30,697 bases of DNA from a virus. The DNA is taken from UHGV virus genome UHGV-1292713, one strand, 5' to 3'. The position numbers and the translations under genes were made by a program. Positions 14,292 through 26,055 of the stretch are shown one piece after another. Each line of letters starts with the position of its first letter. Positions within the stretch are counted from its first letter, which is position 1. The notes under the pieces are model-generated. The model was not told the origin of the DNA. It saw only the letters and a program-made list of their open reading frames with translations, and ran no database searches.

Positions 14292-14662
14292 TGGAGCCAT
14301 ACAGCCTCACACTCGATGAGGCCTGTCATTTTCTCAAAATATCCAGACCGACTGCCATTAACTGGATACGCACAGGCCGCCTACAGGCAACACGTAAAGA
14401 TCCAACCAAGCAAAAATCTCCTTACCTCACAACACGGCAAGCTTGCATTGCGGCGCTTCAGTCTCCGCTGCATACTGTCCAGGTGAGCGCGGGTGATGGC
14501 ATAACAGAGGAAAGAAAATGTCACTCTTCCGCAGAAATGAAATATGGTATGCCTCGTATTCGCTCCCGGGCGGGAAACGAATTAAGGAATCTCTTGGCAC
14601 AAAGGACAAGCGGCAAGCTCAGGAGTTGCACGACAAGCGAAAAGCAGAACTCTGGCGAGTAG
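14291..14662 (+). CDS. Excisionase-like (AlpA/Xis family HTH); 3' extent uncertain
   Basis: Start at ATG 14291 ([31 protein letters not shown]...), overlapping the upstream stop. The frame stays open to 14662, overlapping the integrase start at 14518; the functional product may be shorter. Confidence 0.45.
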
Positions 14663-15681
14663 AAAAGCTAGGGGATTTACCTGATGTCACTTTTGAAGAG
14701 GCCTGCCTAAGATGGCTTGAGGAAAAAGCTGATAAAAAATCTCTCGATTCAGATAAAAGCCGGATTGAGTTCTGGCTTGAACATTTTGAGGGTATAAGGC
14801 TTAAAGATATCTCGGAGGCAAAGATTTACTCTGCTGTAAGCAGAATGCATAACAGAAAGACGAAAGAAATATGGAAACAGAAAGTTCAGGCCGCCATCAG
14901 GAAAGGTAAAGAACCGCCTGTTTATGAACCAAAGCCAGTATCAACTCAGACAAAGGCAAAGCATCTTGCCATGATAAAGGCCATTCTCCGTGCTGCAGAA
15001 CGCGACTGGAAGTGGCTGGAAAAAGCGCCTGTCATCAAGATACCAGCGGTCAGAAACAAGCGAGTCAGATGGCTGGAAAAGGAGGAAGCAAAACGCCTTA
15101 TTGATGAGTGCCCCGAACCACTGAAATCTGTCGTCAAGTTTGCGCTGGCAACTGGTCTGAGAAAGTCGAACATCATAAATCTGGAATGGCAACAAATCGA
15201 CATGCAGCGACGAGTTGCCTGGGTGAATCCAGAAGAGAGCAAATCAAACCGCGCCATTGGTGTGGCGCTGAACGATACCGCCTGTAAAGTGTTGCGTGAT
15301 CAAATAGGCAAGCATCACAAATGGGTGTTTGTACATACCAAGGCGGCTAAGCGAGCAGATGGAACATCAACGCCTGCGGTCAGGAAGATGCGCATCGACA
15401 GCAAGACATCATGGCTATCAGCTTGTCGTCGTGCAGGAATTGAAGATTTCCGTTTCCATGACCTCAGACACACCTGGGCAAGCTGGCTGATCCAGTCAGG
15501 CGTCCCATTATCTGTGCTTCAGGAAATGGGCGGATGGGAGTCCATAGAAATGGTTCGTAGGTATGCTCACCTTGCGCCTAATCATTTGACAGAGCATGCA
15601 AGGAAAATAGACGACATTTTTGGTGATAATGTCCCAAATATGTCCCACTGTGGAATTATGGAGGATATAAAGAAGGCGTAA
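14518..15681 (+). CDS. int: Tyrosine site-specific integrase (DLP12 IntD-like, tRNA-Arg-targeting)
   Basis: 387-aa ORF with the C-terminal catalytic signature ([10 protein letters not shown]...VRRYAHL); immediately followed by a tRNA-Arg 3' fragment. Confidence 0.9.
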
Positions 15682-15696
15682 CTGATTGAATTGTAA

Positions 15697-15741
15697 TGGC
15701 GCGCCCTGCAGGATTCGAACCTGCGGCCCACGACTTAGAAG
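15697..15741 (-). other. Attachment-site core: 3' 45 nt of tRNA-Arg(UCU) (argU-like), partial tRNA
   Basis: Reverse complement reads cttctaagtcgtgggccgcaggttcgaatcctgcagggcgcgcca, i.e. anticodon loop with TCT, T-arm GCAGG-TTCGAAT-CCTGC, acceptor 3' strand and CCA. The 5' half of the tRNA is absent; the sequence diverges after the anticodon loop. Confidence 0.75.
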
Positions 15742-16163
15742 TTCCTAGAACGACATTTTAAGTCAACAAATTACCGCGCCATCTCTGCGCTCACACGTCC
15801 CACTACCTCAAAACATGTAAAGCCTTGCAAGCCATTGTGAGGCCTTATGTGTCTCAGTTTTGTCCCTCTTTTTTGTACTAAAAAACATAGCAATTGAGGA
15901 TAAACCTCATGCTATTTTCGCTTATATGCCTTTAAAGGCATGGCGCTTAAATAGATAAAAACACCACAAAAGCATAAAAAACCACACAGTAAAACCGCAA
16001 CATAAAACAATAACAGATAATTAAACCAAAAACAGATAGCGCATTGTGATAATCATTCAATACTAAACAAAATATAAACAGTGGAGCAATATGTGATTGA
16101 CTCATTAAGTTAGATATAAAAAATACATATTCAATCATTAAAACGATTGAATGGAGAACTTTT

Positions 16164-17117
16164 ATGCGGGCGAAACTTCTGGGAATAGTTCTGACAACCC
16201 CTATTGCGATCAGCTCTTTTGCTTCTACCGAGACTATATCGTTTACTCCTGACAACATCAATGCGGACATTAGTCTTGGAACTCTGAGCGGAAAAACAAA
16301 AGAGCGCGTTTATCTAGCTGAAGAAGGAGGCCGAAAAGTCAGTCAACTCGACTGGAAATTCAATAACGCTGCAATTATTAAAGGTGCAATTAATTGGGAT
16401 TTGATGCCCCAGATATCTATTGGGGCTGCGGGCTGGACTACTCTCGGCAGCCGAGGTGGCAATATGGTCGATCAGGACTGGATGGATTCCAGTAACCCCG
16501 GAACCTGGACAGATGAAAGTAGGCACCCTGATACACAACTCAATTATGCCAACGAATTTGATCTGAATATCAAAGGCTGGCTCCTCAACGAACCCAATTA
16601 CCGCCTGGGACTCATGGCCGGATATCAGGAAAGCCGTTATAGCTTTACAGCCAGAGGTGGTTCCTATATCTACAGTTCTGAGGAGGGATTCAGAGATGAT
16701 ATCGGCTCCTTCCCGAATGGAGAAAGAGCAATCGGCTACAAACAACGTTTTAAAATGCCCTACATTGGCTTGACTGGAAGTTATCGTTATGAAGATTTTG
16801 AGCTAGGTGGCACATTTAAATACAGCGGCTGGGTGGAAGCATCTGATAACGATGAGCACTATGACCCAGGAAAAAGAATCACTTATCGCAGTAAAGTCAA
16901 AGACCAAAATTACTATTCTGTTGCAGTCAATGCAGGTTATTACGTAACACCTAACGCAAAGGTTTATGTTGAAGGCGCATGGAATCGGGTTACGAATAAA
17001 AAAGGTAATACTTCACTTTATGATCACAATGATAACACTTCAGACTACAGCAAAAATGGTGCAGGCATAGAAAACTATAACTTCATCACTACTGCTGGTC
17101 TTAAGTACACCTTTTAA
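16164..17117 (+). CDS. ompT: Outer membrane protease OmpT (omptin family)
   Basis: 317-aa ORF with signal peptide; sequence matches my recollection of E. coli OmpT essentially throughout. Confidence 0.9.
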   Translation: MRAKLLGIVLTTPIAISSFASTETISFTPDNINADISLGTLSGKTKERVYLAEEGGRKVSQLDWKFNNAAIIKGAINWDLMPQISIGAAGWTTLGSRGGNMVDQDWMDSSNPGTWTDESRHPDTQLNYANEFDLNIKGWLLNEPNYRLGLMAGYQESRYSFTARGGSYIYSSEEGFRDDIGSFPNGERAIGYKQRFKMPYIGLTGSYRYEDFELGGTFKYSGWVEASDNDEHYDPGKRITYRSKVKDQNYYSVAVNAGYYVTPNAKVYVEGAWNRVTNKKGNTSLYDHNDNTSDYSKNGAGIENYNFITTAGLKYTF

Positions 17118-17303
17118 CGAAGTTAACCAGATTTTCTCCCCGGTGGTATTGTATAACCCCGGGGAATTTGTTTACAGTTACAAGTAGGCAATATCCACTA
17201 ATTTTGTAAGCATTTAACCTATGTCATAACGTGTAATCTCTTACCGCAACACAAGACCTCAATATATTCAAATCTTATCTTTATTCCGATATTCAGAGAC
17301 ACA

Positions 17304-18788
17304 ATGCGAAAAATAATTACTCATTTCAAAGTTGTTTTAACGTTACTTCTACCAGTAACCGTATCTGCCCAGCAGATACAGTGGCAATCCTGTATGGCCA
17401 GTCAATTCAACCACTGGTTTGGTGAGGAAAAACCGTCTCCTGACTTACTATGTGGTTATTTGTCTGTTCCATTAAAATATACAGACACAGGCGGAGATGC
17501 TTCTTATGAAAAAAAATCACAAGTCAAACTAGCGTTGACAAAATTGCCGGCAAAAAGCAAGCATAAAGGAAGTATCCTGATAATAAGTGGTGGTCCCGGG
17601 TTACCAGGCATAAATCCTTATATTAACTTTGACTGGCCAGTCACAAATCTTCGTGAGTCATGGGATATTATTGGATTTGATCCTCGAGGCGTCGGACAGT
17701 CCACTCCGACAATAAACTGCCGGCAATCAGATACAGAGACTCAGGAAAACATAACCGAAAAGCAACAAGTATTAAATAAAATTAATGCCTGTATCCATAA
17801 TACCGGAGCCGAAGTCATTCGCCATATCGGCTCTAACGAGGCTGTATACGATATTGATCGTATTAGGCAAGCCTTGGGGGATAAACAACTGACAGCCGTG
17901 GCGTATTCGTATGGAACTCAAATTGCAGCCTTATATGCAGAACGTTTTCCCTACAACGTAAGATCTATCGTTCTTGATGGAGTCGTCGATATCGATGACC
18001 TGGAGGACAACTTCACATGGCAACTCAAACAGGCACAGAGTTATCAGGAAACGTTTGATCGCTTTGCATCCTGGTGTGCGCGTACAAAAAGTTGCCCGCT
18101 TTCTTCAGACAGAGATAAGGCAATAACTCAGTTCCATGAGCTATTATCAAAATTACATCACAAACCTTTATTAGACAGTAAGGGAGAAAATATATCTTCA
18201 GATGAACTCATATCATTAACAACAGACCTTCTGCTATGGCGTTCATCATGGCCAACCCTTGCAACTGCCATACGCCAGTTCTCTCAGGGGATTGTCAGTA
18301 ATGAAATTGAAACTGCGCTCAGTGCTCCGATAGCCTCAGAAGAGTCAAGCGATGCTTCGGGGGTAATCCTCTGTGTAGATCAGGGGGATGAGCAATTAAC
18401 ACCAGAAGAGCGAAAATCCCGAAAAGACGCTCTTGCGAATGCCTTCCCGGCTATTAACTTTGACAATGGACGTTCCGATTCACCTGATTTTTGTGAATTA
18501 TGGCCAATACATAGCGACCTGAACAAAACTCGCCTGAAAAATACTGTTCTGCCCTCTGGTTTACTGTTTGTAGCACACAAATACGACCCAACAACGCCCT
18601 GGATTAATGCCCGTAAGATGGCAGAGAAATTTTCCAGCCCGTTACTAACAATAAATGGTGATGGGCATACATTAGCTCTCACCGGAGTTAATTTATGTGT
18701 AGATAAAGCAGTTGTACATCACCTGATCACTCCACAAAAAATAGAAAATATATACTGCCCAGGAAATTCTGAAGCAGAAATACAATAA
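17304..18788 (+). CDS. Secreted alpha/beta-fold hydrolase (S33/TAP-like peptidase family)
   Basis: 494-aa ORF with N-terminal signal peptide (…LLLPVTVSAQQ); nucleophile elbow Y-S-Y-G-T; family call is approximate. Confidence 0.6.
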   Translation: MRKIITHFKVVLTLLLPVTVSAQQIQWQSCMASQFNHWFGEEKPSPDLLCGYLSVPLKYTDTGGDASYEKKSQVKLALTKLPAKSKHKGSILIISGGPGLPGINPYINFDWPVTNLRESWDIIGFDPRGVGQSTPTINCRQSDTETQENITEKQQVLNKINACIHNTGAEVIRHIGSNEAVYDIDRIRQALGDKQLTAVAYSYGTQIAALYAERFPYNVRSIVLDGVVDIDDLEDNFTWQLKQAQSYQETFDRFASWCARTKSCPLSSDRDKAITQFHELLSKLHHKPLLDSKGENISSDELISLTTDLLLWRSSWPTLATAIRQFSQGIVSNEIETALSAPIASEESSDASGVILCVDQGDEQLTPEERKSRKDALANAFPAINFDNGRSDSPDFCELWPIHSDLNKTRLKNTVLPSGLLFVAHKYDPTTPWINARKMAEKFSSPLLTINGDGHTLALTGVNLCVDKAVVHHLITPQKIENIYCPGNSEAEIQ

Positions 18789-18809
18789 TTTCAAAATATT
18801 CCGCTATTT

Positions 18810-18858
18810 GCTCCCAATGCAAAACATATATTGCATTGGGAGCATATTCATATTTTTG
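18810..18858 (+). terminator. Rho-independent terminator after the hydrolase gene
   Basis: Perfect 12-bp stem gctcccaatgca / tgcattgggagc (18810-18821, 18832-18843) followed by a T-rich tract. Confidence 0.55.
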
Positions 18859-18971
18859 TTATTATTGTATGAAATCGTCTCATGTACACGGTCCTTTTTT
18901 CGCCGAAAACTGATATTACTTTAATCAAAAGTTGACGTGCCAGATTCGAAGTAAATTTATAAAATATCAAA

Positions 18972-19277
18972 TCAATATACATTTTGCACCTTCGAGATAG
19001 TAATGACTGTTACTGTAACATGAGTTACAAACAGCTTCATACCCAGAGCTACTGATGTATCAACTCGATTCAACAATACCCGATATTTATTCCATGCCTC
19101 CAGCAACGATCTTTCTTCCTCCGTTGCGATTTCCAGATCTACAGCATCCTGCAGTGGCGCAATATACTCACTGAATTCCTGGATGTAGAACTGTGTAGTG
19201 ACGGTCTTCCAGCCATTCGGCTCCTGCTGTATCGAAGCATACCAGGCTATTTCAATATCGCTATGCTGCGGCAGCAT
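18972..19277 (-). pseudogene. Tail fibre assembly protein remnant (C-terminal fragment, tfaX-like)
   Basis: The 101-aa ORF shares the C-terminal segment [14 protein letters not shown]...[17 protein letters not shown] with the intact tfa at 21790..22365; lacks the N-terminal domain. Confidence 0.65.
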
Positions 19278-19333
19278 TTAACCCCTTGTAATTCATCGCC
19301 ATAATTGATTTAATTCACAAATAAAACTATAAC

Positions 19334-20002
19334 ATGGTGAAATTAATGAAAAAAAACACAGATGATGGGGCTAAAATTTACACACCACTTACCCTAAAGC
19401 TTTATGACTGGTGGGTTTTGGGAGTATCAAATCGGCTTGCATGGGGATGTCCTACAAAGGAACACCTTCTTCCACACTTTCTGGAACATTTAGGTAACAA
19501 CCATCTGGATATTGGTGTTGGAACTGGGTTTTACCTTACTCACGTACCTGAGAGTAGTCTGATATCTTTAATGGATTTGAACGAAGCTAGCCTGAACGCG
19601 GCATCTACAAGGGCTGGGGAATCAAAAATTAAACATAAAATTAACCATGATGTTTTTGAACCTTATCCCGCGGCGTTACATGGTCAATTTGATTCCATTT
19701 CCATGTTTTACCTTCTTCACTGCCTGCCTGGAAATATATCTACAAAAAGCTGTGTAATACGCAATGCGGCGCAGGCCTTAACTGACGATGGAACTCTATA
19801 CGGAGCCACAATTCTTGGCGATGGAGTTGTGCACAATAGCTTCGGTCAAAAACTGATGCGCATTTACAATCAGAAAGGCATCTTTTCAAACACAAAAGAT
19901 TCCGAAGAAGGCTTAACACATATACTCTCAGAGCATTTCGAGAATGTTAAAACCAAGGTTCAAGGTACTGTAGTAATGTTTTCCGCTTCAGGGAAAAAAT
20001 AG
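19334..20002 (+). CDS. Class I SAM-dependent methyltransferase (YbcY-like by recollection)
   Basis: 222-aa ORF with motif I LDIGVGTGFY. Confidence 0.7.
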   Translation: MVKLMKKNTDDGAKIYTPLTLKLYDWWVLGVSNRLAWGCPTKEHLLPHFLEHLGNNHLDIGVGTGFYLTHVPESSLISLMDLNEASLNAASTRAGESKIKHKINHDVFEPYPAALHGQFDSISMFYLLHCLPGNISTKSCVIRNAAQALTDDGTLYGATILGDGVVHNSFGQKLMRIYNQKGIFSNTKDSEEGLTHILSEHFENVKTKVQGTVVMFSASGKK

Positions 20003-20007
20003 CATCC

Positions 20008-20048
20008 AACCGCAGCACGTTCTTGCATAAGGCGTGTCTGCGGTTTTT
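20008..20048 (+). terminator. Rho-independent terminator after the SAM-MTase gene
   Basis: accgcagcacg / cgtgtctgcggt hairpin (one bulge) followed by T5. Confidence 0.55.
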
Positions 20049-20549
20049 CAACTATTCAGATACATCACTCCCATCACATTCATTCCTCCGCATCATAGGC
20101 ATATAGACTATATCACCTTGATATTTTTCTTCTTCAGATAAAAACTGTTATCTATGTATACTTTTAAACCCAATCCGTGTAGAGTCTCTGCATAAGATAG
20201 TTTGCAGTTGCCACTTCAGCTTGCGCCATAAACCGCCTGATTTTTGCTGCCACCTGTTAGCATTCCTGTATACCTGAAACGACAATGTTTATCTACGAAC
20301 TTTAAGAACCCCCAGGATAAAAATTGTCAACTATATCATATATAACACATTACTAATTCGAGGCTATATGAACAGCATACTGATAATCACTTCGCTCCTT
20401 ATCATATTCAGCATTTTTAGTCATGCTCTAATAAAATTAGGGATTGGCATATCCAATAACCCAGACAAAACCGATGTATAAGTCAACATATACTGAATCA
20501 GACATACAATATCGCAATGAAAATCAATAATATTTTAAGGAATATCTTC

Positions 20550-20783
20550 ATGAAATCAAAAGACACCCTAAAGTGGTTCCCTGCGCAGCTTCCTGAAGTA
20601 AGAATTATCCTAGGGGATGCTGTAATGGAAGTAGCAAAACAGGGAAGACCTATCAATACCAGAACATTGCTTGATCACATTGAAGGAAACATAAAGAAAA
20701 AGTCATGGCTGGATAACAAAGAATTATTACAAACAGCGATATCAGTTCTTAAAGACAACAAAAATTTAAATGGTAAAATGTAA
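20550..20783 (+). CDS. Small hypothetical protein in AT-rich gene-poor segment
   Basis: Start assigned to ATG 20550 (MKSKDTLKW...) with AAGGA Shine-Dalgarno 8 nt upstream; 77 aa; no recognisable motif. Confidence 0.3.
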   Translation: MKSKDTLKWFPAQLPEVRIILGDAVMEVAKQGRPINTRTLLDHIEGNIKKKSWLDNKELLQTAISVLKDNKNLNGKM

Positions 20784-21101
20784 TATAATAAACTTACTTT
20801 TTTATCATTTTTCCACTTTAACAACATTTTGCTCCACTTTTCCACGACCAAACAACTTGAAATCTGGTTAAAATAACACGCAACACTATTCTTCTTCCTT
20901 GAGTCCGCCCGGAACTCGAAAAACAAACCGAGTTAAGGCCATTTTTCACAAAATCGATTTTGGATCTCACCAAAATTACGGGGTTGCATACGCATTCGTT
21001 TATTTTCGAACGTGTACATACAAATATGTACAAAAATAATCAAAATTATTTTCTGAGATGCATTATGATATGTACACCAATTTCGTATAGAAGATCTCAC
21101 T

Positions 21102-21692
21102 ATGTCTCGAATTTATGCTTACTGTCGGGTATCAACTCTGGAACAAACAACCAAAAATCAACGTCGGGAAATCGAAAGTGCAGGTTTTAACATCAAATCT
21201 CAGCAAATAATTGAAGAACAAATTAGCGGCTCAGCAGCAACCAGTGAGCGTCCTGGTTTTAACCAGTTGCTTGATCGACTGAAAAGAGGTGATGCATTGA
21301 TTGTCACAAAACTGGATCGCCTCGGTTGTAATCCAATGGATATCAGTAAAACGGTGGAACAACTGACCAAAGCAGGTATCAAAGTGCATTGCTTAGCATT
21401 GGGGGGCGTTGACCTGACCAGTCCACCTGGAAAAATGATGATGCAAGTAATTTCAGCAGTCGCTGAATTTGAGCGAGACCTTTTACTTGAGCGTACTCAT
21501 TCAGGGATATTAAGAGCACGGGGCGCAGGAAAGCGATTTGGTCGCCCACCTGTGTTAAATGATGAACAAATACAGAGGGTACTAGAGCAAATTAAGTCAG
21601 GTATAAATATAAGTGACATTGCCCAAGAATTCAAAACCTCGCGGCAAACCATTTTAAGAGCTAAAGCAAAAAATCAGACACCTGATATATAA
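21102..21692 (+). CDS. Serine recombinase (resolvase/invertase family, Pin/Gin/Hin-like)
   Basis: 196-aa ORF; N-terminal catalytic region YCRVSTLEQ, resolvase core and C-terminal HTH; located beside the tail fibre / tfa genes. Confidence 0.85.
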
Positions 21693-21789
21693 AAATAATC
21701 TCGGTGTGAGATTCCTTACGTTTTCCAAGCCCCCCTTCCTAGCCTTAAATGGAAAGATACTTCTAATTATAGAATTTATATATCTTACC

Positions 21790-22365
21790 CTACGGTAGGG
21801 CTGGCCATTCAATATCCGGTGCAGTTGATGTATCAACACGATTCAGCAACACCCGATACTTTTTCCAGGCTTCCAGCAACAAGGTTTCTTTCTCCGTTGC
21901 GATCTCCAGATCCACAGCATCCTGAAGCGGCGCTATATGCTCACTGGCTACCTGCATCAGGCTGTTTTTTGTTTCTTCCGCCTCCCGGATCCGGAACAGT
22001 TTTTCTGCTTCCGTATCCTTCACCCAGGCTGTGCCGTTCCACTTCTGAAACTCCCCTTCCGGGGATAACCAGGTGACATTTTCCGGTAATGAGCCGAGTT
22101 CAGAAATAAATAACGCGTCGCCGGAAGCCACGTCATAAACCGTTTTACCCCGATGATCTTCAACGAGATGCCACGATGACTCATCACTGTTGAAAACAGC
22201 CACGAAACCAGCCGGAATATCTGGCGGTGCAATATCGGTACTGTTTGCTGGCAGACCTGTATGAGGCGGAATATATGCATCACCTTCACCAATAAATTCA
22301 TTAGTTCCGGACAGCAGATTATAAATTTTTATGGTCCGTGGTTGTTCACTCATTCTGAATGCCAT
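21790..22365 (-). CDS. tfa: Tail fibre assembly protein (Tfa)
   Basis: 191-aa ORF overlapping the stf stop (TAATG); conserved Tfa C-terminus. Confidence 0.8.
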
Positions 22366-25300
22366 TATGCAAGCCTCACAATATAGTTAAATGCGATGTT
22401 TTTGACGGTGTTTTCCGCGTTACCAGCAGCGTTAACGGTGATGGTGTGTCCATGTGAGCCAATCGCAACCGAGTGCGTATGAGCACCAATACCGACAGTA
22501 TGTGCGTGAGCACCTGCAGATGCAGCTGTGCCGCTGACACTATGAGTGTGCGCTCCTGCAGCACTTGTATTCACACTGGCCGCAGACACTACCTTATGTA
22601 CTGACCCATTTTGTGACCACTGGCTGACTGCTGATGCGCCTGTGACACTATGAGTATGGTTTCCGGCACTTGCGGCTGTACCGCTCACACTGTGCGTATG
22701 CGCCCCGATGTTATTCGTGGATTTAGTGCCGTAATCAAACGACGATGTGGTTTTCGTCCCCAAATCCGTACTGGATGCGCTGGCGCTGTGGGTGTGCGAT
22801 TTAATGCCGTCCTGTTCCTGAGACAATACAGCCCGACCACTGGCAGGTTTGCCCTTAATCGTCCAGCCACGCATATCAGGGATCACGCCTGACGGATAAG
22901 CGGCTGCAAGTTTCGGGTATGCAGATTTGTCAAAAGTCTGCCCCTGCATCAGGGCATAACCAGACGGAACGGTATCTGATGGCCACGGGATTGGTGCACC
23001 GACTGGATAAAACTCTGCAGGAGGATGAGCTGAGGTGTAAAGCTGCGCCCACGGCGACCAGTTTGCGTCGGTCGTATCCCGTCGTGAACGAATAAATGCC
23101 GGAGCATGAGCACCGCTTGTACCACTCCAGCCGATGAGTAACTCACCTTCGCCAACGGCTGTCATCCCTTTCAGGTGAATGATATTTCCATACACTGTTG
23201 GATATCCGTTGTTATACACCTCGTATAACTCAAGACCTGTTGCCCCCTGCGTATTGTCTGTCAGCGCGATTACCCGACCTTTTGAAGCCAGATTAACTGA
23301 TGATACTGCTGTTCCACCTGACGGTAACGCCCCGATCTCTGATGCCGTTGGCTTATTTCTGGAGTTATAGTCCCTTCGCCAGCCAGGTGAATAATCTGTT
23401 CCGTGATTAATATAGGTAAGCTGAGCGTTAGTTGTTCCACCACCAGTGGAGGTGGTCGGTGTGGTAATGCGGATCGTCATCGCTGACTTTATCCCCATTA
23501 CTTCAATGACAGCTCCGGCGAGATGAATATTACCGCAGCCAGTATCAGTAATGATTTTATTATTGCCATAAGACCAGGAACCCTTGCACATCCAGTATGG
23601 ATGGTTAAATGCTCCCTGAGAATCCAGCCACTCGATAAACTGTGCAGTCGTCCAGTCTCCTGTTGTTGTGCTTACTGACCCACAGAAGGCGCGGCAGGCA
23701 CCAATATTTTTCGTAAAGGTGTCTTTGCCAGGGATATCCGCACCGTTCTGATCTTTCTGCAGACGTTTCTCAGCATTGTCATTGGCTGCTTTTACTGCCT
23801 TTGGCGTTGCCGCCAGCGTTTCAGACGTGCTGTTGGTCGCGCTGCTGAGCTGAACTATCCCTTTCTGTGCTGTCGTTGCATCCTGTGCGGTGTATTTCCC
23901 GTTAGCCAGGTCATACGCGGCCTTAACTGCTTTTGGCGTTGCCGCCAGTGACTCGGAAGTGCTGTCGATCGCACTGCTGAGCTGTACTATCCCCTTTTTC
24001 GTCGTGCTCGCATCCTCAAGCGCCACGGCGGATGCAATATCCTCTGCCCGTTTTGCTGCTGTCTCAGCGCGCGTTGCCGCGGATTCTGCTGTACTTTTGC
24101 TCTGTGCTGCCGCCGTCGCACTGCCAGCTGCCTCTGTCGCCTTCGTGGATGCCGTCGTGGCGCTGCCCTTCGCTGCTGACGCCTGTCTGGTCGCCTCATC
24201 TTTTGAAGCAGACGCAGATGATGCCGATGACGCCGCCGAACTGGCTGACGATGCGGCTGCCGTTTTTGAGGATTCTGCACTGGTTTCCGACGCTTTCGCA
24301 TTCGTTTCGGATGTCTTCGCTGCGGATGCAGACCTCGCTGCTGCGCTGGCCTGTTCAGCGGCTTCGCCAGCCTTCGTTGTAGCTGTTGAAGCGGACGATG
24401 CAGCGCTTTCTGCCGATTTTCCGGCGGCAGTGGCACTGGCTGAGGCCTGCCCGGCACTTGTTGACGCTGCACTGGCAGACGACGCAGCCGCTGTTTTTGA
24501 GCCTGCTGCTGCGGAGGCACTCTGTTCCGCTGCCGTTTCAGAAGCCTTGGCGTTCGTCTCGGACGTTTTTGCCGCCTTCGCGGAATTTCCTGCCGCCGTA
24601 GCCGAGGAAGCTGCGCTGCTGGCGCTCGAGGCTGCGTTCGTTTCTGATGATTTTGCCGCCTCTTTTGAAGCCGACGCATCCCGTGCTGAAGTGGCTGCTT
24701 CTGACGCTTTCGTGGTCGCGGTGGATGCAGAAGTGGCTGCTGATTGTTGTGACGCTGCCGCATTCGTTTCTGACGTTTTTGCCGTAGCGGCACTGGTGGC
24801 CGCCGCGCTTTTTGAGGACTCTGCAGCGGCAGCACTTTTTGATGCTTCAGTGGCCTTTGCTGATGCCGTTCCTGCGCTGGAAGACGCTGACTGAGCCGAC
24901 GAAGCGGCCTGTCCGGCTGACGTGCTGGCTGCGCGTGCTGAGCCTGCAGCATCAGTCGCATGGGTTGCCGCCTCACGGGCTGATGTGCTGGCATCGCTGG
25001 CTGACTTCTTCGCGGCTGCTGTGTTCTGTGCCACCGCGGACGCGTTACGCGCCACCTCTTCCACCATCAGTTCAAAACGTCTCAGTGCCTCCGGACGGGC
25101 ATCATCCTCCGTCATGGCACCGAGAAAATCATTCAGCGTACCGGGTTGAGAATCTTCATACACGGTGATGGTCCCGGCATGTGACGGCGGGAATCCCTCC
25201 ACCAACAGAATAACGCTGTACTGACCGTACTCAACGTCCATACTGTAACGCCCGGCTTCATCCGGATTTTCTGAGGCCAGCGTGTTCACCACCACCGTGT

Positions 25301-25391
25301 TGCTGTTACGTTTTGCTTTCAGCTGGATTGTGCAGTTCTGTACCGGTTTTCCTGTGCCGTCTTTCAGTACACCTGAAATCTTTACTGCCAT
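22365..25391 (-). CDS. stf: Side tail fibre protein (lambda Stf-like), with Ala/Ser-rich repeat region and C-terminal HTHS repeats
   Basis: Start assigned to ATG 25391 ([12 protein letters not shown]..., as in lambda Stf as I recall it); the ORF track begins 2 codons upstream at a GTG. Long Ala/Ser/Thr-rich low-complexity core and GAHTHSVSG repeats near the C-terminus. Confidence 0.85.
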
Positions 25392-25402
25392 ATTCACCCC
25401 AC

Positions 25403-25428
25403 AAAAAAGCCCGCCTGAACCGGCGGGC
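25403..25428 (-). terminator. Rho-independent terminator between lom and stf
   Basis: gcccgcc-ggttca-ggcgggc hairpin on the minus strand followed by T6 (plus-strand A-run 25403-25408). Confidence 0.6.
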
Positions 25429-25455
25429 TGTCATAACACTGTGTTACCTGGCTAA

Positions 25456-26055
25456 TCAGAATTTATAACCGACACCCACGATGAAACCGTCAGTGCGCCA
25501 GTCACCACTGCCTGAGCCTTCATAAGCAATATCAATGGCCACGGATTCGGTCGGGTTAAACTGCACGCCAGCCCCCCACGCCAGAGACGTGTTGCTGTGG
25601 CGACCGTCATCACTTCCGGTCAGCACATCGTGCTTTTTCCCCTTGTTGTCAGTTACGCGGATATAATCTCCGGAGAAAGTCGAAACACGGCTGTAAGCCA
25701 CACCCGCCATCGCATACGCGCTGAACCATTCATTCACGCGCACAGACGGCCCCGCCATCACGCTGAACCAGCGGTTACGCACGGAATCTTCATGCCAGCG
25801 GGTATCGCTGTAATGAGTCAGCTGGCGATTCTTGTCTTCTGCATAGCTGAATGACGTCACCATCCCCAGCGTGTCCGTAAACTCATAACGGTATTTCACG
25901 TTAATCCCGTTAAGATCATCACTGCCGGGAACGTTGGTCCGGGCATGAAGATACCCCGCGCTCAGCGTGGACTGATGTTCAGACGCCCATGCAGGCGCAC
26001 AGGATACGGCCAGACAAATGGCTGCGGACAAAATGGCGGCATAAAGTTTACGCAT
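25456..26055 (-). CDS. lom: Lom/Ail/PagC-family outer membrane beta-barrel protein
   Basis: 199-aa ORF with signal peptide; C-terminus AYEGSGSGDWRTDGFIVGVGYKF matches lambda Lom as I recall it; sits between J and stf as in lambda. Confidence 0.85.
   Translation of the reverse strand: MRKLYAAILSAAICLAVSCAPAWASEHQSTLSAGYLHARTNVPGSDDLNGINVKYRYEFTDTLGMVTSFSYAEDKNRQLTHYSDTRWHEDSVRNRWFSVMAGPSVRVNEWFSAYAMAGVAYSRVSTFSGDYIRVTDNKGKKHDVLTGSDDGRHSNTSLAWGAGVQFNPTESVAIDIAYEGSGSGDWRTDGFIVGVGYKF

What the first reader, a model, noticed from the sequence alone, without database searches (positions are those of the whole stretch)
16164..20002. Cargo block between att and the tail fibre genes: ompT, secreted alpha/beta hydrolase, SAM methyltransferase
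Three host-interaction-type genes with their own signals (signal peptides, terminators) occupy the b-region-equivalent position. ompT is a known protease of antimicrobial peptides; the adjacent 494-aa secreted hydrolase is not a gene I can name and may be a co-acquired envelope or virulence factor. The AT-rich ompT upstream region (15750-16160) has no credible ORF.
Basis: partly seen in the sequence, partly recalled or inferred. Interest (0 to 1): 0.45.

Follow-up and report, generated by a model that had tools for sequence, protein, structure and literature searches.

The report
Phage cargo: OmpT plus Hip1-like hydrolase
This is an ordinary accessory-gene block of a lambda-like E. coli phage, already annotated in public records, but its unnamed secreted hydrolase is an intact relative of the tuberculosis protease Hip1 that travels next to OmpT-type proteases on phages and plasmids.

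Summary
Between the phage attachment site (45-nt argU fragment, 15698-15742) and the tail-fibre genes lie three intact genes, each followed by its own hairpin: ompT (16164-17117), a 494-aa exported alpha/beta hydrolase (17304-18788) and a class I SAM methyltransferase (19334-20002). The block has 41% G+C against 56% in the tail genes.

None of it is new sequence. It is 99.6% identical to phages Turner, ev243 and 2G7b. It matches the right end of K-12 DLP12, where appY replaces the hydrolase, and of O157:H7 Sakai prophage Sp8 (ECs_1662/1663).

The hydrolase can now be named. It is a full-length homologue of M. tuberculosis Hip1 (tripeptidyl-peptidase/TAP group of MEROPS S33). The Ser202-Asp428-His455 triad and oxyanion-hole residues are invariant, ten Cys are conserved, it has a Sec signal peptide, and dN/dS is about 0.13.

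It travels with ompT: 1221 of 1230 E. coli genomes with a full-length copy have it directly after ompT. A diverged omptin-hydrolase pair recurs in three plasmid-type lineages, including ompP on IncF plasmids.

I infer an envelope serine peptidase working alongside the omptin; this is untested. The methyltransferase is an uncharacterised small-molecule or lipid type. Verdict: known kind, modest interest.

The parts
15698..15742 (.). attP core: 45 nt identical to the reverse complement of the 3' end of tRNA-Arg argU
   Evidence: Sequence read. Aligns with attR of K-12 DLP12 and with the argU-side remnant in AR_451. ARAGORN finds no complete tRNA in the window. The match to argU itself rests on my own knowledge of its sequence.
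15743..16163 (+). ompT promoter and leader region (AT-rich, non-coding)
   Evidence: Nearly identical to the K-12 DLP12 region upstream of ompT. The proximal ~130 nt are conserved even in the EDL933 and pH22 plasmid copies. One promoter-like match at 16097-16124.
16164..17117 (+). ompT, omptin outer-membrane aspartyl protease
   Evidence: Pfam Omptin 2.8e-130; NCBIfam NF008222 708 bits. D83/D85/D210/H212 and a 20-aa signal peptide are present. 99% identical to K-12 and EDL933 OmpT.
17137..17165 (+). hairpin after ompT (probable terminator or attenuator), followed by UUUGUUU
   Evidence: RNA fold -19.8 kcal/mol, z -2.56. The hairpin is conserved downstream of all four omptin lineages (alignment A4).
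17168..19047 (+). hydrolase cassette: the segment exchanged for the appY cassette in K-12 DLP12 and phage Kati
   Evidence: blastn module map. Annotations of K-12 and Kati.
17189..17303 (+). conserved 115-nt leader upstream of the hydrolase gene, a candidate for its own promoter
   Evidence: Retained with the hydrolase on a plasmid that lacks any omptin (L005). Conserved in three of the four omptin-linked lineages and deleted in the IncF ompP lineage. Promoter function is inferred, not shown.
17304..18788 (+). exported Hip1/TAP-like serine hydrolase (MEROPS S33 tripeptidyl-peptidase/Hip1 group), 494 aa
   Evidence: PDB phmmer: Hip1, E=3.5e-51, full length. AF2 model pLDDT 89; Foldseek top hits are Hip1, TM 0.77-0.80. 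S202/D428/H455, G97, Y203 and T431 invariant, with 10 conserved Cys. dN/dS 0.12-0.16.
18809..18844 (+). 14-bp hairpin after the hydrolase gene (terminator-like)
   Evidence: -24.4 kcal/mol, z -5.05. It is kept with the gene on plasmids L004 and L005.
18972..19277 (-). tail-fibre-assembly remnant (tfaX-like, C-terminal part only)
   Evidence: Pfam Caudo_TAP matches profile positions 75-121 only. It forms an 82-86% direct repeat with the intact tfa at 21812-21957. Corresponds to tfaX of K-12.
19334..20002 (+). class I SAM-dependent methyltransferase, the intact counterpart of the K-12 pseudogene ybcY
   Evidence: Pfam Methyltransf_12/23/25/11. 97% DNA identity to the K-12 ybcY region. AF2 pLDDT 90; nearest structures are small-molecule or lipid methyltransferases. 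No DNA-methyltransferase (D/N/S)PP(Y/F) motif.
20008..20050 (+). intrinsic terminator after the methyltransferase gene (stem plus UUUUU)
   Evidence: -20.7 kcal/mol, z -4.94. Homology to K-12, ev243 and EDL933 ends at 20043-20046, at the foot of this hairpin.

Best explanation
The region is the b-region accessory ('moron') block of a mosaic lambda-like phage that integrates at argU and is related to DLP12. Its genes point away from attP and run antisense to the tail operon. Each has its own terminator, so they can be expressed from the prophage independently of lytic transcription.

1. ompT is the known outer-membrane protease that cuts cationic antimicrobial peptides.

2. The 494-aa gene encodes a Sec-exported, disulfide-rich serine hydrolase of the Hip1/tripeptidyl-peptidase (TAP) group of MEROPS family S33. 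It has a complete Ser202-Asp428-His455 triad and oxyanion hole. I infer that it is an active periplasmic or envelope peptidase, with esterase side activity as in Hip1. I further infer that it works in the same envelope-proteolysis or peptide-defence context as the omptin, for example by trimming peptide fragments that pass the outer membrane. The basis is that an omptin-hydrolase pair is kept together and under purifying selection in four diverged lineages on phages and plasmids.

3. The third gene is a cytoplasmic small-molecule or lipid-type SAM methyltransferase (YbcY) of unknown substrate. It rides with a tail-fibre-assembly remnant.

What is shown: gene identities, family membership by sequence and predicted fold, conserved catalytic residues, the export signal, linkage statistics, purifying selection, and transcription of the O157 copy in a lysogen.

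What is inferred: peptidase (rather than esterase) activity, final location in the cell, and any functional coupling to the omptin.
For: Position and module structure:
- attP core, ORFs, hairpins and low G+C.
- 99.6% identity to phages Turner, ev243 and 2G7b.
- The same architecture occurs in K-12 DLP12 and phage Kati with appY in place of the hydrolase, and in Sakai prophage Sp8.

Hydrolase family:
- Pfam Abhydrolase_1 plus the TAP-like domain.
- Hip1 at E=3.5e-51 over residues 21-475, with the catalytic Ser, Asp and His motifs aligned.
- AF2 model with pLDDT 89 and pTM 0.89. Foldseek top six hits are all Hip1, TM 0.75-0.81, followed by TnmK1/2.
- Invariant S202, D428, H455, G97, Y203 and T431, and ten conserved Cys, across 35 homologues of 28-82% identity.
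- Hip1 has the triad S228/D463/H490 and an oxyanion hole formed by G110 and Y229. It has 11 Cys with 5 predicted disulfides, and shows both protease and esterase activity (PMC4022732, PMC13041806).
- Hip1 and the tripeptidyl-peptidases form one of the genuine-peptidase clusters of S33 (PMC11878206).

Linkage:
- The hydrolase is in 1254 of 5426 E. coli genomes. 1230 have a copy covering at least 80% of the gene, and 1221 have ompT and hydrolase contiguous.
- Diverged pairs also occur on ColV-like plasmid pH22 (omptin 89.6% / hydrolase 96.0% aa identity), on conjugative-plasmid-like metagenome contigs (79.2% / 82.0%), and on IncF plasmids with ompP (70.3% / 76.4%).
- ompP and its hydrolase are contiguous in 156 of 186 matching PLSDB plasmids.

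Selection and expression:
- Hydrolase dN/dS is 0.12-0.16.
- ECs1662 (the hydrolase) and ECs1663 (ompT) are both expressed in growing O157 Sakai. Both fall about 6-fold at entry into stationary phase and sit in the same expression cluster (PMC2241611).

Neighbourhood logic:
- The slot after other OmpT-like omptins holds envelope or peptide-resistance genes: hlyF plus mig-14 after ArlC, and a MacAB-TolC-like pump in E. albertii.
Against: - No biochemical or genetic data exist for this protein or for any gammaproteobacterial homologue. I found no paper that mentions it.
- S33-type folds include many non-peptidases (PMC11878206), and TnmK1/2 in the same fold group are biosynthetic enzymes. RAST calls it a 'lactone hydrolase'.
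- Homologues of about 53% identity in Salmonella, Budvicia and Serratia are not next to an omptin, and one E. coli plasmid carries the gene alone. The pairing is therefore not obligatory.
- ompT functions without the hydrolase in K-12 and UPEC, where the hydrolase is replaced or deleted.
- Tight linkage in closely related elements can be hitch-hiking. Only four lineages support co-divergence.
- The shared expression cluster is the largest one (1078 ORFs), so it is weak evidence for co-regulation.
- A terminator-like hairpin lies between ompT and the hydrolase gene.
Confidence: 0.6

Rival explanations
1. The hydrolase is an exported esterase, lipase or lactonase acting on a non-peptide substrate, such as an acylated envelope component, a host lipid or a lactone. 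Its position after omptin genes is hitch-hiking in a cargo hot spot, not functional coupling.
For: - Hip1 itself hydrolyses p-nitrophenyl butyrate and was long annotated as carboxylesterase A.
- Most S33-type sequences are not peptidases (PMC11878206).
- RAST names it a 'putative lactone hydrolase'.
- The gene occurs without an omptin on a deer E. coli plasmid and in Salmonella, Budvicia and Serratia.
- The slot after ompT is demonstrably exchangeable: appY, a deletion, or hlyF-mig14.
Against: - The best sequence and fold matches are to the peptidase cluster (Hip1, TAP-like domain) rather than to lipases or epoxide hydrolases, which score far lower.
- Hip1 residues lining the peptide-binding site and oxyanion hole (G110, Y229, T466) are invariant here.
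- The pair has been kept together through divergence down to about 70-76% aa identity, with both genes under purifying selection.
Confidence: 0.25
2. The hydrolase, or the block as a whole, serves the phage as an anti-phage or superinfection-exclusion function acting at the cell envelope.
For: - PADLOC-DB contains a model 'C3a206, TAP-like protein' that matches the protein over its full length, E=6.8e-56.
- Prophage regions next to att commonly carry defence genes (general knowledge).
- The methyltransferase gives a weak hit to the MADS component mad2, E=7e-4.
Against: - No other defence component is detected in the block.
- The protein is exported and disulfide-rich, unlike intracellular defence effectors.
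- The same gene pair sits on F-type and ColV-type plasmids among virulence and fitness genes.
- The mad2 hit is marginal and covers only the generic SAM-binding fold.
Confidence: 0.07
3. The hydrolase is a TnmK-like non-hydrolytic or biosynthetic alpha/beta-fold enzyme, or a decaying passenger gene with no current function.
For: - TnmK1/2 are the next structural neighbours, TM 0.76-0.81.
- The neighbouring tail-fibre-assembly fragment shows that the area has undergone decay.
Against: - TnmK1 matches at only E=4e-18, against 3.5e-51 for Hip1.
- No biosynthetic genes are nearby.
- The full triad is invariant.
- dN/dS is about 0.13 over dS up to 1.15.
- The ORF was annotated without a pseudogene flag in every listed row of a spread sample of the genome hits.
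Confidence: 0.04

Closest known systems
Mycobacterium tuberculosis Hip1 (Rv2224c / CaeA) and the Streptomyces tripeptidyl aminopeptidases Tap/SlpD/SlpE (MEROPS S33, Pfam PF00561 + PF08386)
   Same: - Full-length homology (E=3.5e-51) and the same predicted fold, including the helical lid (TM about 0.8).
- The same Ser-Asp-His triad, oxyanion-hole Gly and Tyr, and the Thr next to the catalytic Asp.
- An exported protein with about 10 conserved Cys, against 5 predicted disulfides in Hip1.
   Different: - Only 26-28% identical to Hip1.
- The host is Gram-negative, so the likely compartment is the periplasm.
- Carried on phages and plasmids rather than being a chromosomal core gene.
- No known substrate. 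Hip1's substrate GroEL2 and its role in macrophages cannot be transferred to this protein.
- Activity is untested.
Right end of E. coli K-12 cryptic prophage DLP12 (tfaD-ybcY-tfaX-appY-ompT-attR) and O157:H7 Sakai prophage Sp8 (ECs_1656-1663)
   Same: - Same argU att core as K-12 DLP12, same ompT with its upstream region, and same tfaX remnant and ybcY methyltransferase, at 96-99% DNA identity.
- Sp8 has the same ompT-hydrolase pair, with an ISEc8 inserted after it.
   Different: - K-12 has appY where this phage has the hydrolase, and its ybcY is a pseudogene.
- Here the block sits in what looks like an intact phage genome arrangement (int-attP-cargo-tail fibres) and all three genes are intact.
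- A 1.76-kb segment (20044-21802) carrying the 88-aa ORF and the Pin-like invertase lies between the methyltransferase and the tail-fibre assembly gene.
Lambda b-region / moron genes (lom, bor) and plasmid omptin loci (ompP on F; arlC/ompTp-hlyF-mig14 on ColV plasmids)
   Same: - Accessory genes with low G+C and their own terminators, expressed from the lysogen and acting on the cell envelope.
- An omptin followed by a variable envelope-related partner gene.
   Different: The partner here is a Hip1-like hydrolase. To my knowledge and in my searches it has not been studied in any of these loci, although it also sits after ompP on F-type plasmids.

Membership tests
Omptin (Pfam PF01278; OmpT-like subfamily) | Full-length match above the curated cutoff | tested here: met
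   Pfam 433.9 bits (cutoff 22.6); NCBIfam NF008222 708 bits (cutoff 537).
Omptin (Pfam PF01278; OmpT-like subfamily) | Catalytic Asp83/Asp85 and Asp210/His212 (mature numbering) and a Sec signal peptide | tested here: met
   All four residues are present in their motifs VDQDW and NDEHY. The 20-aa signal peptide ends SFA|STE. The residue numbering is from my own knowledge of OmpT.
Hip1 / tripeptidyl-peptidase (TAP) group of MEROPS S33 | Alpha/beta-hydrolase core plus the TAP-like C-terminal domain (PF08386), homologous over the full length | tested here: met
   PF00561 115.9 bits and PF08386 54.2 bits, both above cutoff. Hip1 E=3.5e-51 over residues 21-475.
Hip1 / tripeptidyl-peptidase (TAP) group of MEROPS S33 | Ser-Asp-His catalytic triad with nucleophile elbow, and oxyanion-hole residues | tested here: met
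   S202 (AYSYG), D428 (YDPTTP) and H455 (GDGHT) align with Hip1 S228/D463/H490. G97 and Y203 align with Hip1 G110 and Y229. All are invariant in 35 homologues.
Hip1 / tripeptidyl-peptidase (TAP) group of MEROPS S33 | Hip1-like three-dimensional fold with lid domain | tested here: met
   AF2 pLDDT 89.1. The Foldseek top six PDB hits are all Hip1 entries, TM 0.75-0.81. This is a predicted model, not an experimental structure.
Hip1 / tripeptidyl-peptidase (TAP) group of MEROPS S33 | Exported, disulfide-stabilised protein | tested here: inconclusive
   An SPase-I-type signal peptide was identified by inspection and hydropathy. Exactly 10 Cys are present, all invariant or nearly so. No dedicated signal-peptide predictor was available, and neither the disulfide pairing nor the location has been measured.
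Hip1 / tripeptidyl-peptidase (TAP) group of MEROPS S33 | Peptidase activity (tripeptidyl or endopeptidase) | not testable with these tools
   Requires an enzyme assay.
Prophage moron / lambda b-region cargo | Located between attP and the tail-fibre genes, variable among related phages, atypical composition | tested here: met
   attP at 15698-15742 and tail-fibre genes from 21790. Kati carries appY instead, and Tritos has no such block. 40.8% against 55.7% G+C.
Prophage moron / lambda b-region cargo | Autonomous transcription unit (own promoter and terminator), expressed in the lysogen | tested here: inconclusive
   Hairpin terminators follow all three genes. Promoters are only consensus-level matches, no more frequent than chance. 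Microarray data show that ECs1662 and ECs1663 are expressed in growing O157 Sakai, but that is a different copy of the block.
Class I SAM-dependent methyltransferase (YbcY family) | Rossmann-like SAM-binding fold with motif I (DxGxGxG) | tested here: met
   Four Pfam methyltransferase models above cutoff. LDIGVGTG with D59, G61, G63 and G65 invariant. AF2 pLDDT 90; all top PDB hits are class I methyltransferases.
Class I SAM-dependent methyltransferase (YbcY family) | DNA methyltransferase catalytic motif (D/N/S)PP(Y/F/W) | tested here: not met
   The motif is absent. The nearest structures are lipid or small-molecule methyltransferases: PE N-methyltransferase 8ys9, JHAMT and PfPMT, TM about 0.6. 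It should therefore not be filed as a restriction-modification or DNA methylase.
Anti-phage defence system (PADLOC) | A complete set of components of a known system in the locus | tested here: not met
   Only an isolated match to the model 'TAP-like protein C3a206', plus a marginal mad2 hit. There are no partner genes.

The most novel reading that the evidence does not exclude
OmpT-type omptins and this Hip1-like exported serine peptidase form a conserved two-enzyme envelope proteolysis module. Phages (DLP12-like, Sp8) and plasmids (F/ompP, ColV-like) spread it through E. coli. On this reading the hydrolase is an unrecognised contributor to antimicrobial-peptide resistance or host interaction in EHEC O157:H7 and many other strains, a Gram-negative counterpart of the M. 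tuberculosis virulence protease Hip1.
Probability: 0.3. Interest if true: 0.55.

Novelty: new member of a known kind. Interest (0 to 1): 0.36.

Why it matters
OmpT is a widely used virulence marker and a studied defence against antimicrobial peptides. The gene directly behind it in about 40% of ompT-positive complete E. coli genomes (1221 of about 3111) has, as far as I could find, never been examined. That set includes O157:H7 EDL933 and Sakai, and a paralogue sits behind ompP on F-type plasmids.

Recognising it as an intact, exported homologue of Hip1 under purifying selection gives a concrete, cheap-to-test hypothesis: a second protease acting with the omptin. It also cautions that ompT or ompP clones and knock-outs may include or disturb this neighbour. 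For example, the published ompP cloning primer ompP_cr encodes SGGPGLPG, which lies inside the hydrolase gene.

For phage biology the block is a textbook case of modular cargo exchange. Hydrolase, appY or a deletion occupies the same slot next to att.

Tried and rejected
- Complete tRNA at att. ARAGORN finds none. The 'tRNA-Pro' annotated in phages Turner and Kati is the argU 3' fragment.
- Coding potential of 15750-16160. Only an unsupported antisense ORF that overlaps ompT.
- Consensus promoter and terminator scan. Not above shuffled expectation. I relied on folding z-scores instead.
- Rfam. Only IS009 hits inside the tail-fibre assembly coding sequence, plus sub-threshold noise.
- Literature. 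Searches for ompT + hydrolase/DLP12/appY, for Z1930/Z1932/ECs1662/ECs1664/WP_001226373, and for ompT + Hip1/TAP found nothing on this protein except a microarray table entry. The arlA/arlB/arlC search was swamped by archaellum papers.
- Genome-wide locus scan with the hydrolase alignment. It returned mostly Actinobacteria because of the peptide pattern chosen. None of those loci has an omptin nearby, so it says little about Enterobacterales.
- Hydrolase remnants next to arlC, next to the E. albertii omptin, or in K-12, Kati or UPEC-like loci. None found.
- Invertible segment for the Pin-like invertase. No convincing inverted repeats in 15600-26000.
- Defence-system reading. Rejected as the main explanation.
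- DNA-methylase reading of the methyltransferase. Rejected.
- Technical note. Fetched loci reached the scripting sandbox with a delay and bundled into a few files, which cost.

Full report
**1. The observation**

The three ORFs are present exactly as described.
- ompT, 16164-17117 (+), 317 aa.
- A 494-aa ORF, 17304-18788 (+).
- A 222-aa ORF, 19334-20002 (+).

Upstream lie an excisionase-like gene and a 387-aa tyrosine integrase (14518-15681). Immediately after the integrase, at 15698-15742, is a 45-nt stretch that is the reverse complement of the 3' end of tRNA-Arg argU (the argU sequence is from my own knowledge). The same stretch forms attR of K-12 DLP12 in alignment A2. ARAGORN finds no whole tRNA, so this is the attP core.

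Downstream, on the minus strand, are a tail-fibre assembly gene (21790-22365) and a 1010-aa tail-fibre gene (22365-25397). The block is therefore in the lambda b-region position.

Its G+C content is 40.8%, against 55.7% for the tail region.

Each of the three genes is followed by a stable hairpin:
- 17137-17165, z -2.6.
- 18809-18844, z -5.1.
- 20008-20045 followed by UUUUU, z -4.9.

A plain consensus scan was not above chance.

The AT-rich stretch 15750-16160 is almost base-for-base the K-12 sequence between attR and ompT, that is, the ompT promoter and leader. Its last ~130 nt are conserved in every ompT-like copy compared.

**2. Where the sequence comes from**

The 5-kb block is 99.6% identical to Escherichia phages Turner, ev243 (genus Nesevirus) and 2G7b, and 98.6-99.5% identical to several ECOR-derived PhiR phages. 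RefSeq already labels the ev243 genes 'OmpT', 'alpha/beta hydrolase' and 'class I SAM-dependent methyltransferase'. All three proteins have PHROG families of unknown function. The window as a whole is a mosaic: no deposited phage covers 80% of its first 25 kb.

A blastn module map, read together with the annotations, shows how the block is assembled.
- 15695-17167 (att core, ompT, ompT hairpin) is shared with K-12 DLP12 and with phage Kati.
- 17168-19047 is a hydrolase cassette. In K-12 and Kati it is replaced by an appY cassette.
- 19048-20043 (a tfaX-like tail-fibre-assembly remnant plus the methyltransferase, which is the intact form of the K-12 pseudogene ybcY) is shared again.
- UPEC-like chromosomes such as AR_451 keep only ompT, the methyltransferase, a tail-fibre-assembly remnant and an integrase remnant next to argU. 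Compared with this window they lack exactly 17274-19250, and the junction shows TTCAA(A)T microhomology. That locus therefore derives from a hydrolase-bearing arrangement.
- In O157:H7 Sakai the pair is ECs_1663 (ompT) and ECs_1662 ('hydrolase'), at the right end of lambda-like prophage Sp8, with ISEc8 inserted after it. EDL933 has the same arrangement.
- Phage Tritos, which has a different integrase, has no such block.

**3. What the hydrolase is**

- Pfam gives Abhydrolase_1 plus the TAP-like C-terminal domain.
- Against PDB sequences, the best matches are the M. tuberculosis protease Hip1 (Rv2224c, 'carboxylesterase A'; 7sfm, 8e5w, 5ugq) at E=3.5e-51 over residues 21-475. TnmK1/2 and prolyl aminopeptidases score far lower.
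- An AlphaFold model built from 35 homologues has pLDDT 89 and pTM 0.89. Its top six Foldseek hits in the PDB are all Hip1 (TM 0.75-0.81), followed by TnmK1/2.
- In the 35-sequence alignment (28-82% identity to the query), S202, D428 and H455 are invariant, as are G97, Y203 and T431. Ten Cys are invariant or nearly so, and the protein has exactly ten.
- These residues correspond to the published Hip1 triad S228/D463/H490, the oxyanion hole G110/Y229, and T466. They also match Hip1's 11 Cys and 5 predicted disulfides (PMC4022732, PMC13041806).
- Hip1 and the Streptomyces tripeptidyl-peptidases form one of the few genuine-peptidase clusters inside MEROPS S33 (PMC11878206).
- The N-terminus (MRKIITHFKVVLTLLLPVTVSA|QQ) is a typical SPase I signal with no lipobox. 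The model is disordered there.

**4. Does it travel with ompT?**

Yes.
- The gene is in 1254 of 5426 complete E. coli genomes, and 1230 have a copy covering at least 80% of it.
- A query spanning ompT plus the hydrolase is covered at 80% or more in a single place in 1221 genomes. Nearly every full-length copy therefore lies directly after ompT.
- About 3111 genomes match ompT itself.

The pairing also survives deep divergence.

| Lineage | Omptin aa identity to window | Hydrolase aa identity to window |
|---|---|---|
| ColV-like plasmid pH22 | 89.6% | 96.0% |
| Conjugative-plasmid-like metagenome contigs | 79.2% | 82.0% |
| IncF plasmids (ompP) | 70.3% | 76.4% |

- ompP and its hydrolase are contiguous in 156 of 186 matching PLSDB plasmids.
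- Both genes are under purifying selection. Hydrolase dN/dS is 0.12-0.16 with dS up to 1.15; omptin dN/dS is 0.07-0.18.
- The hairpin after the omptin gene is conserved in all four lineages. A 115-nt leader before the hydrolase is conserved in three of them, and also in a plasmid that carries the hydrolase alone. It is deleted in the IncF lineage, where only 92 nt separate the genes.

The pairing is not universal.
- Homologues of about 53% identity in Salmonella, Budvicia and Serratia have no omptin neighbour.
- ArlC/OmpTp on ColV plasmids is followed by hlyF and mig-14.
- An E. albertii omptin is followed by a MacAB-TolC-like pump.
- No hydrolase remnant is found at those loci.
- Plasmids carrying Pla, Kop, Cpa, Epo or IcsP come from genera that are absent, or in the case of Shigella nearly absent (2 records against 135), from the hydrolase hit list.

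**5. Expression**

In a growth-phase microarray study of O157:H7 Sakai, ECs1662 and ECs1663 both fall about 6-fold (log2 -2.53 and -2.72) at the transition to stationary phase, and both are in expression cluster 1 (PMC2241611). One search confirms that ECs_1662 is the hydrolase. This shows that the gene is transcribed in a lysogen. Because cluster 1 is the largest cluster, it is only weak evidence for co-regulation.

**6. The methyltransferase**

It has the class I SAM fold and motif I. It lacks a signal peptide and the DNA-methylase (D/N/S)PP(Y/F) motif. Homologues are widespread, unnamed prophage-type genes in Enterobacterales. The AF2 model (pLDDT 90) is closest to small-molecule or lipid methyltransferases: a bacterial phosphatidylethanolamine N-methyltransferase (8ys9, TM 0.61-0.65), JHAMT and phosphoethanolamine methyltransferases. 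There is also a sub-threshold NCBIfam PmtA hit. This supports 'small-molecule or lipid methyltransferase, substrate unknown' and nothing more.

**7. Mechanism proposed**

The block is a set of autonomous accessory genes read away from att and insulated by terminators. OmpT cleaves cationic peptides at the cell surface; this is established knowledge (see also PMC6854850).

I infer that the hydrolase is an active exported serine peptidase of the Hip1/TAP type, acting in the periplasm or envelope in the same functional context. The most economical idea is further degradation of peptide fragments or processing of envelope proteins. The inference rests on three things:
- family membership;
- the conserved catalytic machinery;
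- the conserved, selected pairing with omptins, whose downstream slot elsewhere holds other envelope or peptide-resistance genes.

Rival readings are an esterase or lactonase with mere hitch-hiking, an envelope-level anti-phage function suggested by a PADLOC 'TAP-like' model, and a TnmK-like or decaying gene. They are weighed in the structured fields.

**8. Novelty and verdict**

The block, its genes and its phage are already in the databases, and the architecture is that of DLP12 and Sp8. Two things appear not to be in the literature I could search:
- the identification of the ompT-adjacent hydrolase as a Hip1 homologue;
- the recognition that an omptin-hydrolase pair is conserved across phage and plasmid lineages, including ompP on F-type plasmids.

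That makes it a new member of a known enzyme family in a known kind of cargo locus. It offers a testable but unproven functional link. Interest is modest.

Noticed in passing
window 20368-20481 (+): A 37-aa strongly hydrophobic ORF ([37 protein letters not shown]) matches phrog_35882, function unknown. It looks like a small membrane peptide or type-I-toxin-like gene.
   Followed up: partly
window 20517-20783 (+) and 21102-21692 (+): An 88-aa ORF (phrog_2718; from memory it resembles the K-12 cold-shock prophage proteins YnaE/YdfK) sits next to a Pin/Gin-type serine DNA invertase. I found no inverted crossover sites and no alternative tail-fibre segment in 15600-26000, so the invertase seems to lack an invertible segment here.
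   Followed up: partly
window 21824-22022 (-) and 19051-19254 (-): The Rfam 'IS009' sRNA family matches inside the tail-fibre assembly gene (216 bits, above the gathering score) and inside its remnant (109 bits, below it), on the coding strand. The family probably models coding sequence.
   Followed up: no
window 19039-19184 and 21812-21957: An 82-86% direct repeat of the tail-fibre-assembly C-terminal coding region brackets the methyltransferase, the small ORFs and the invertase. It suggests the cargo was assembled by recombination between tail-fibre assembly genes.
   Followed up: partly
window 17274-19250 versus L007 (E. coli AR_451, UPEC-like ompT locus): UPEC-like chromosomes keep ompT and an intact methyltransferase next to argU, but lack exactly this 1977-bp segment (the hydrolase plus most of the tail-fibre-assembly remnant). 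The junction has TTCAA(A)T microhomology, so their ompT locus derives from a hydrolase-bearing prophage.
   Followed up: yes
window 15698-15742; L002 3097-3180; L009 2598-2681: Phages Turner and Kati annotate an 84-nt 'tRNA-Pro' right after the integrase. ARAGORN finds no tRNA in the window. The sequence is the argU 3' fragment that forms the att core.
   Followed up: yes
window 17304-18788: PADLOC-DB holds a model (PDLC01094, 'C3a206, TAP-like protein') that matches the hydrolase over its full length, E=6.8e-56. I could not establish which candidate defence system that model belongs to.
   Followed up: no
L010 3886-6425 (IncF plasmid pECC-1470_100) and PMC6854850: F-type plasmids carry ompP immediately followed (92-nt gap) by a 499-aa paralogue of the hydrolase. 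The published ompP cloning primer ompP_cr encodes SGGPGLPG, the hydrolase's oxyanion-loop motif, so that ompP clone probably included the 5' part of the hydrolase gene.
   Followed up: partly
window 22365-25397 (-): The 1010-aa tail-fibre protein has a long Ala/Ser/Thr-rich low-complexity central region and several short tandem repeat families, including His-containing GAHTHS-like repeats near the C-terminus.
   Followed up: no
window 1-25000: No deposited phage covers 80% of the first 25 kb. The best matches (2H10, PhiR29_1, SfV, Kati, Ayreon) each cover 41-49%, so the window is a mosaic lambdoid genome.
   Followed up: no
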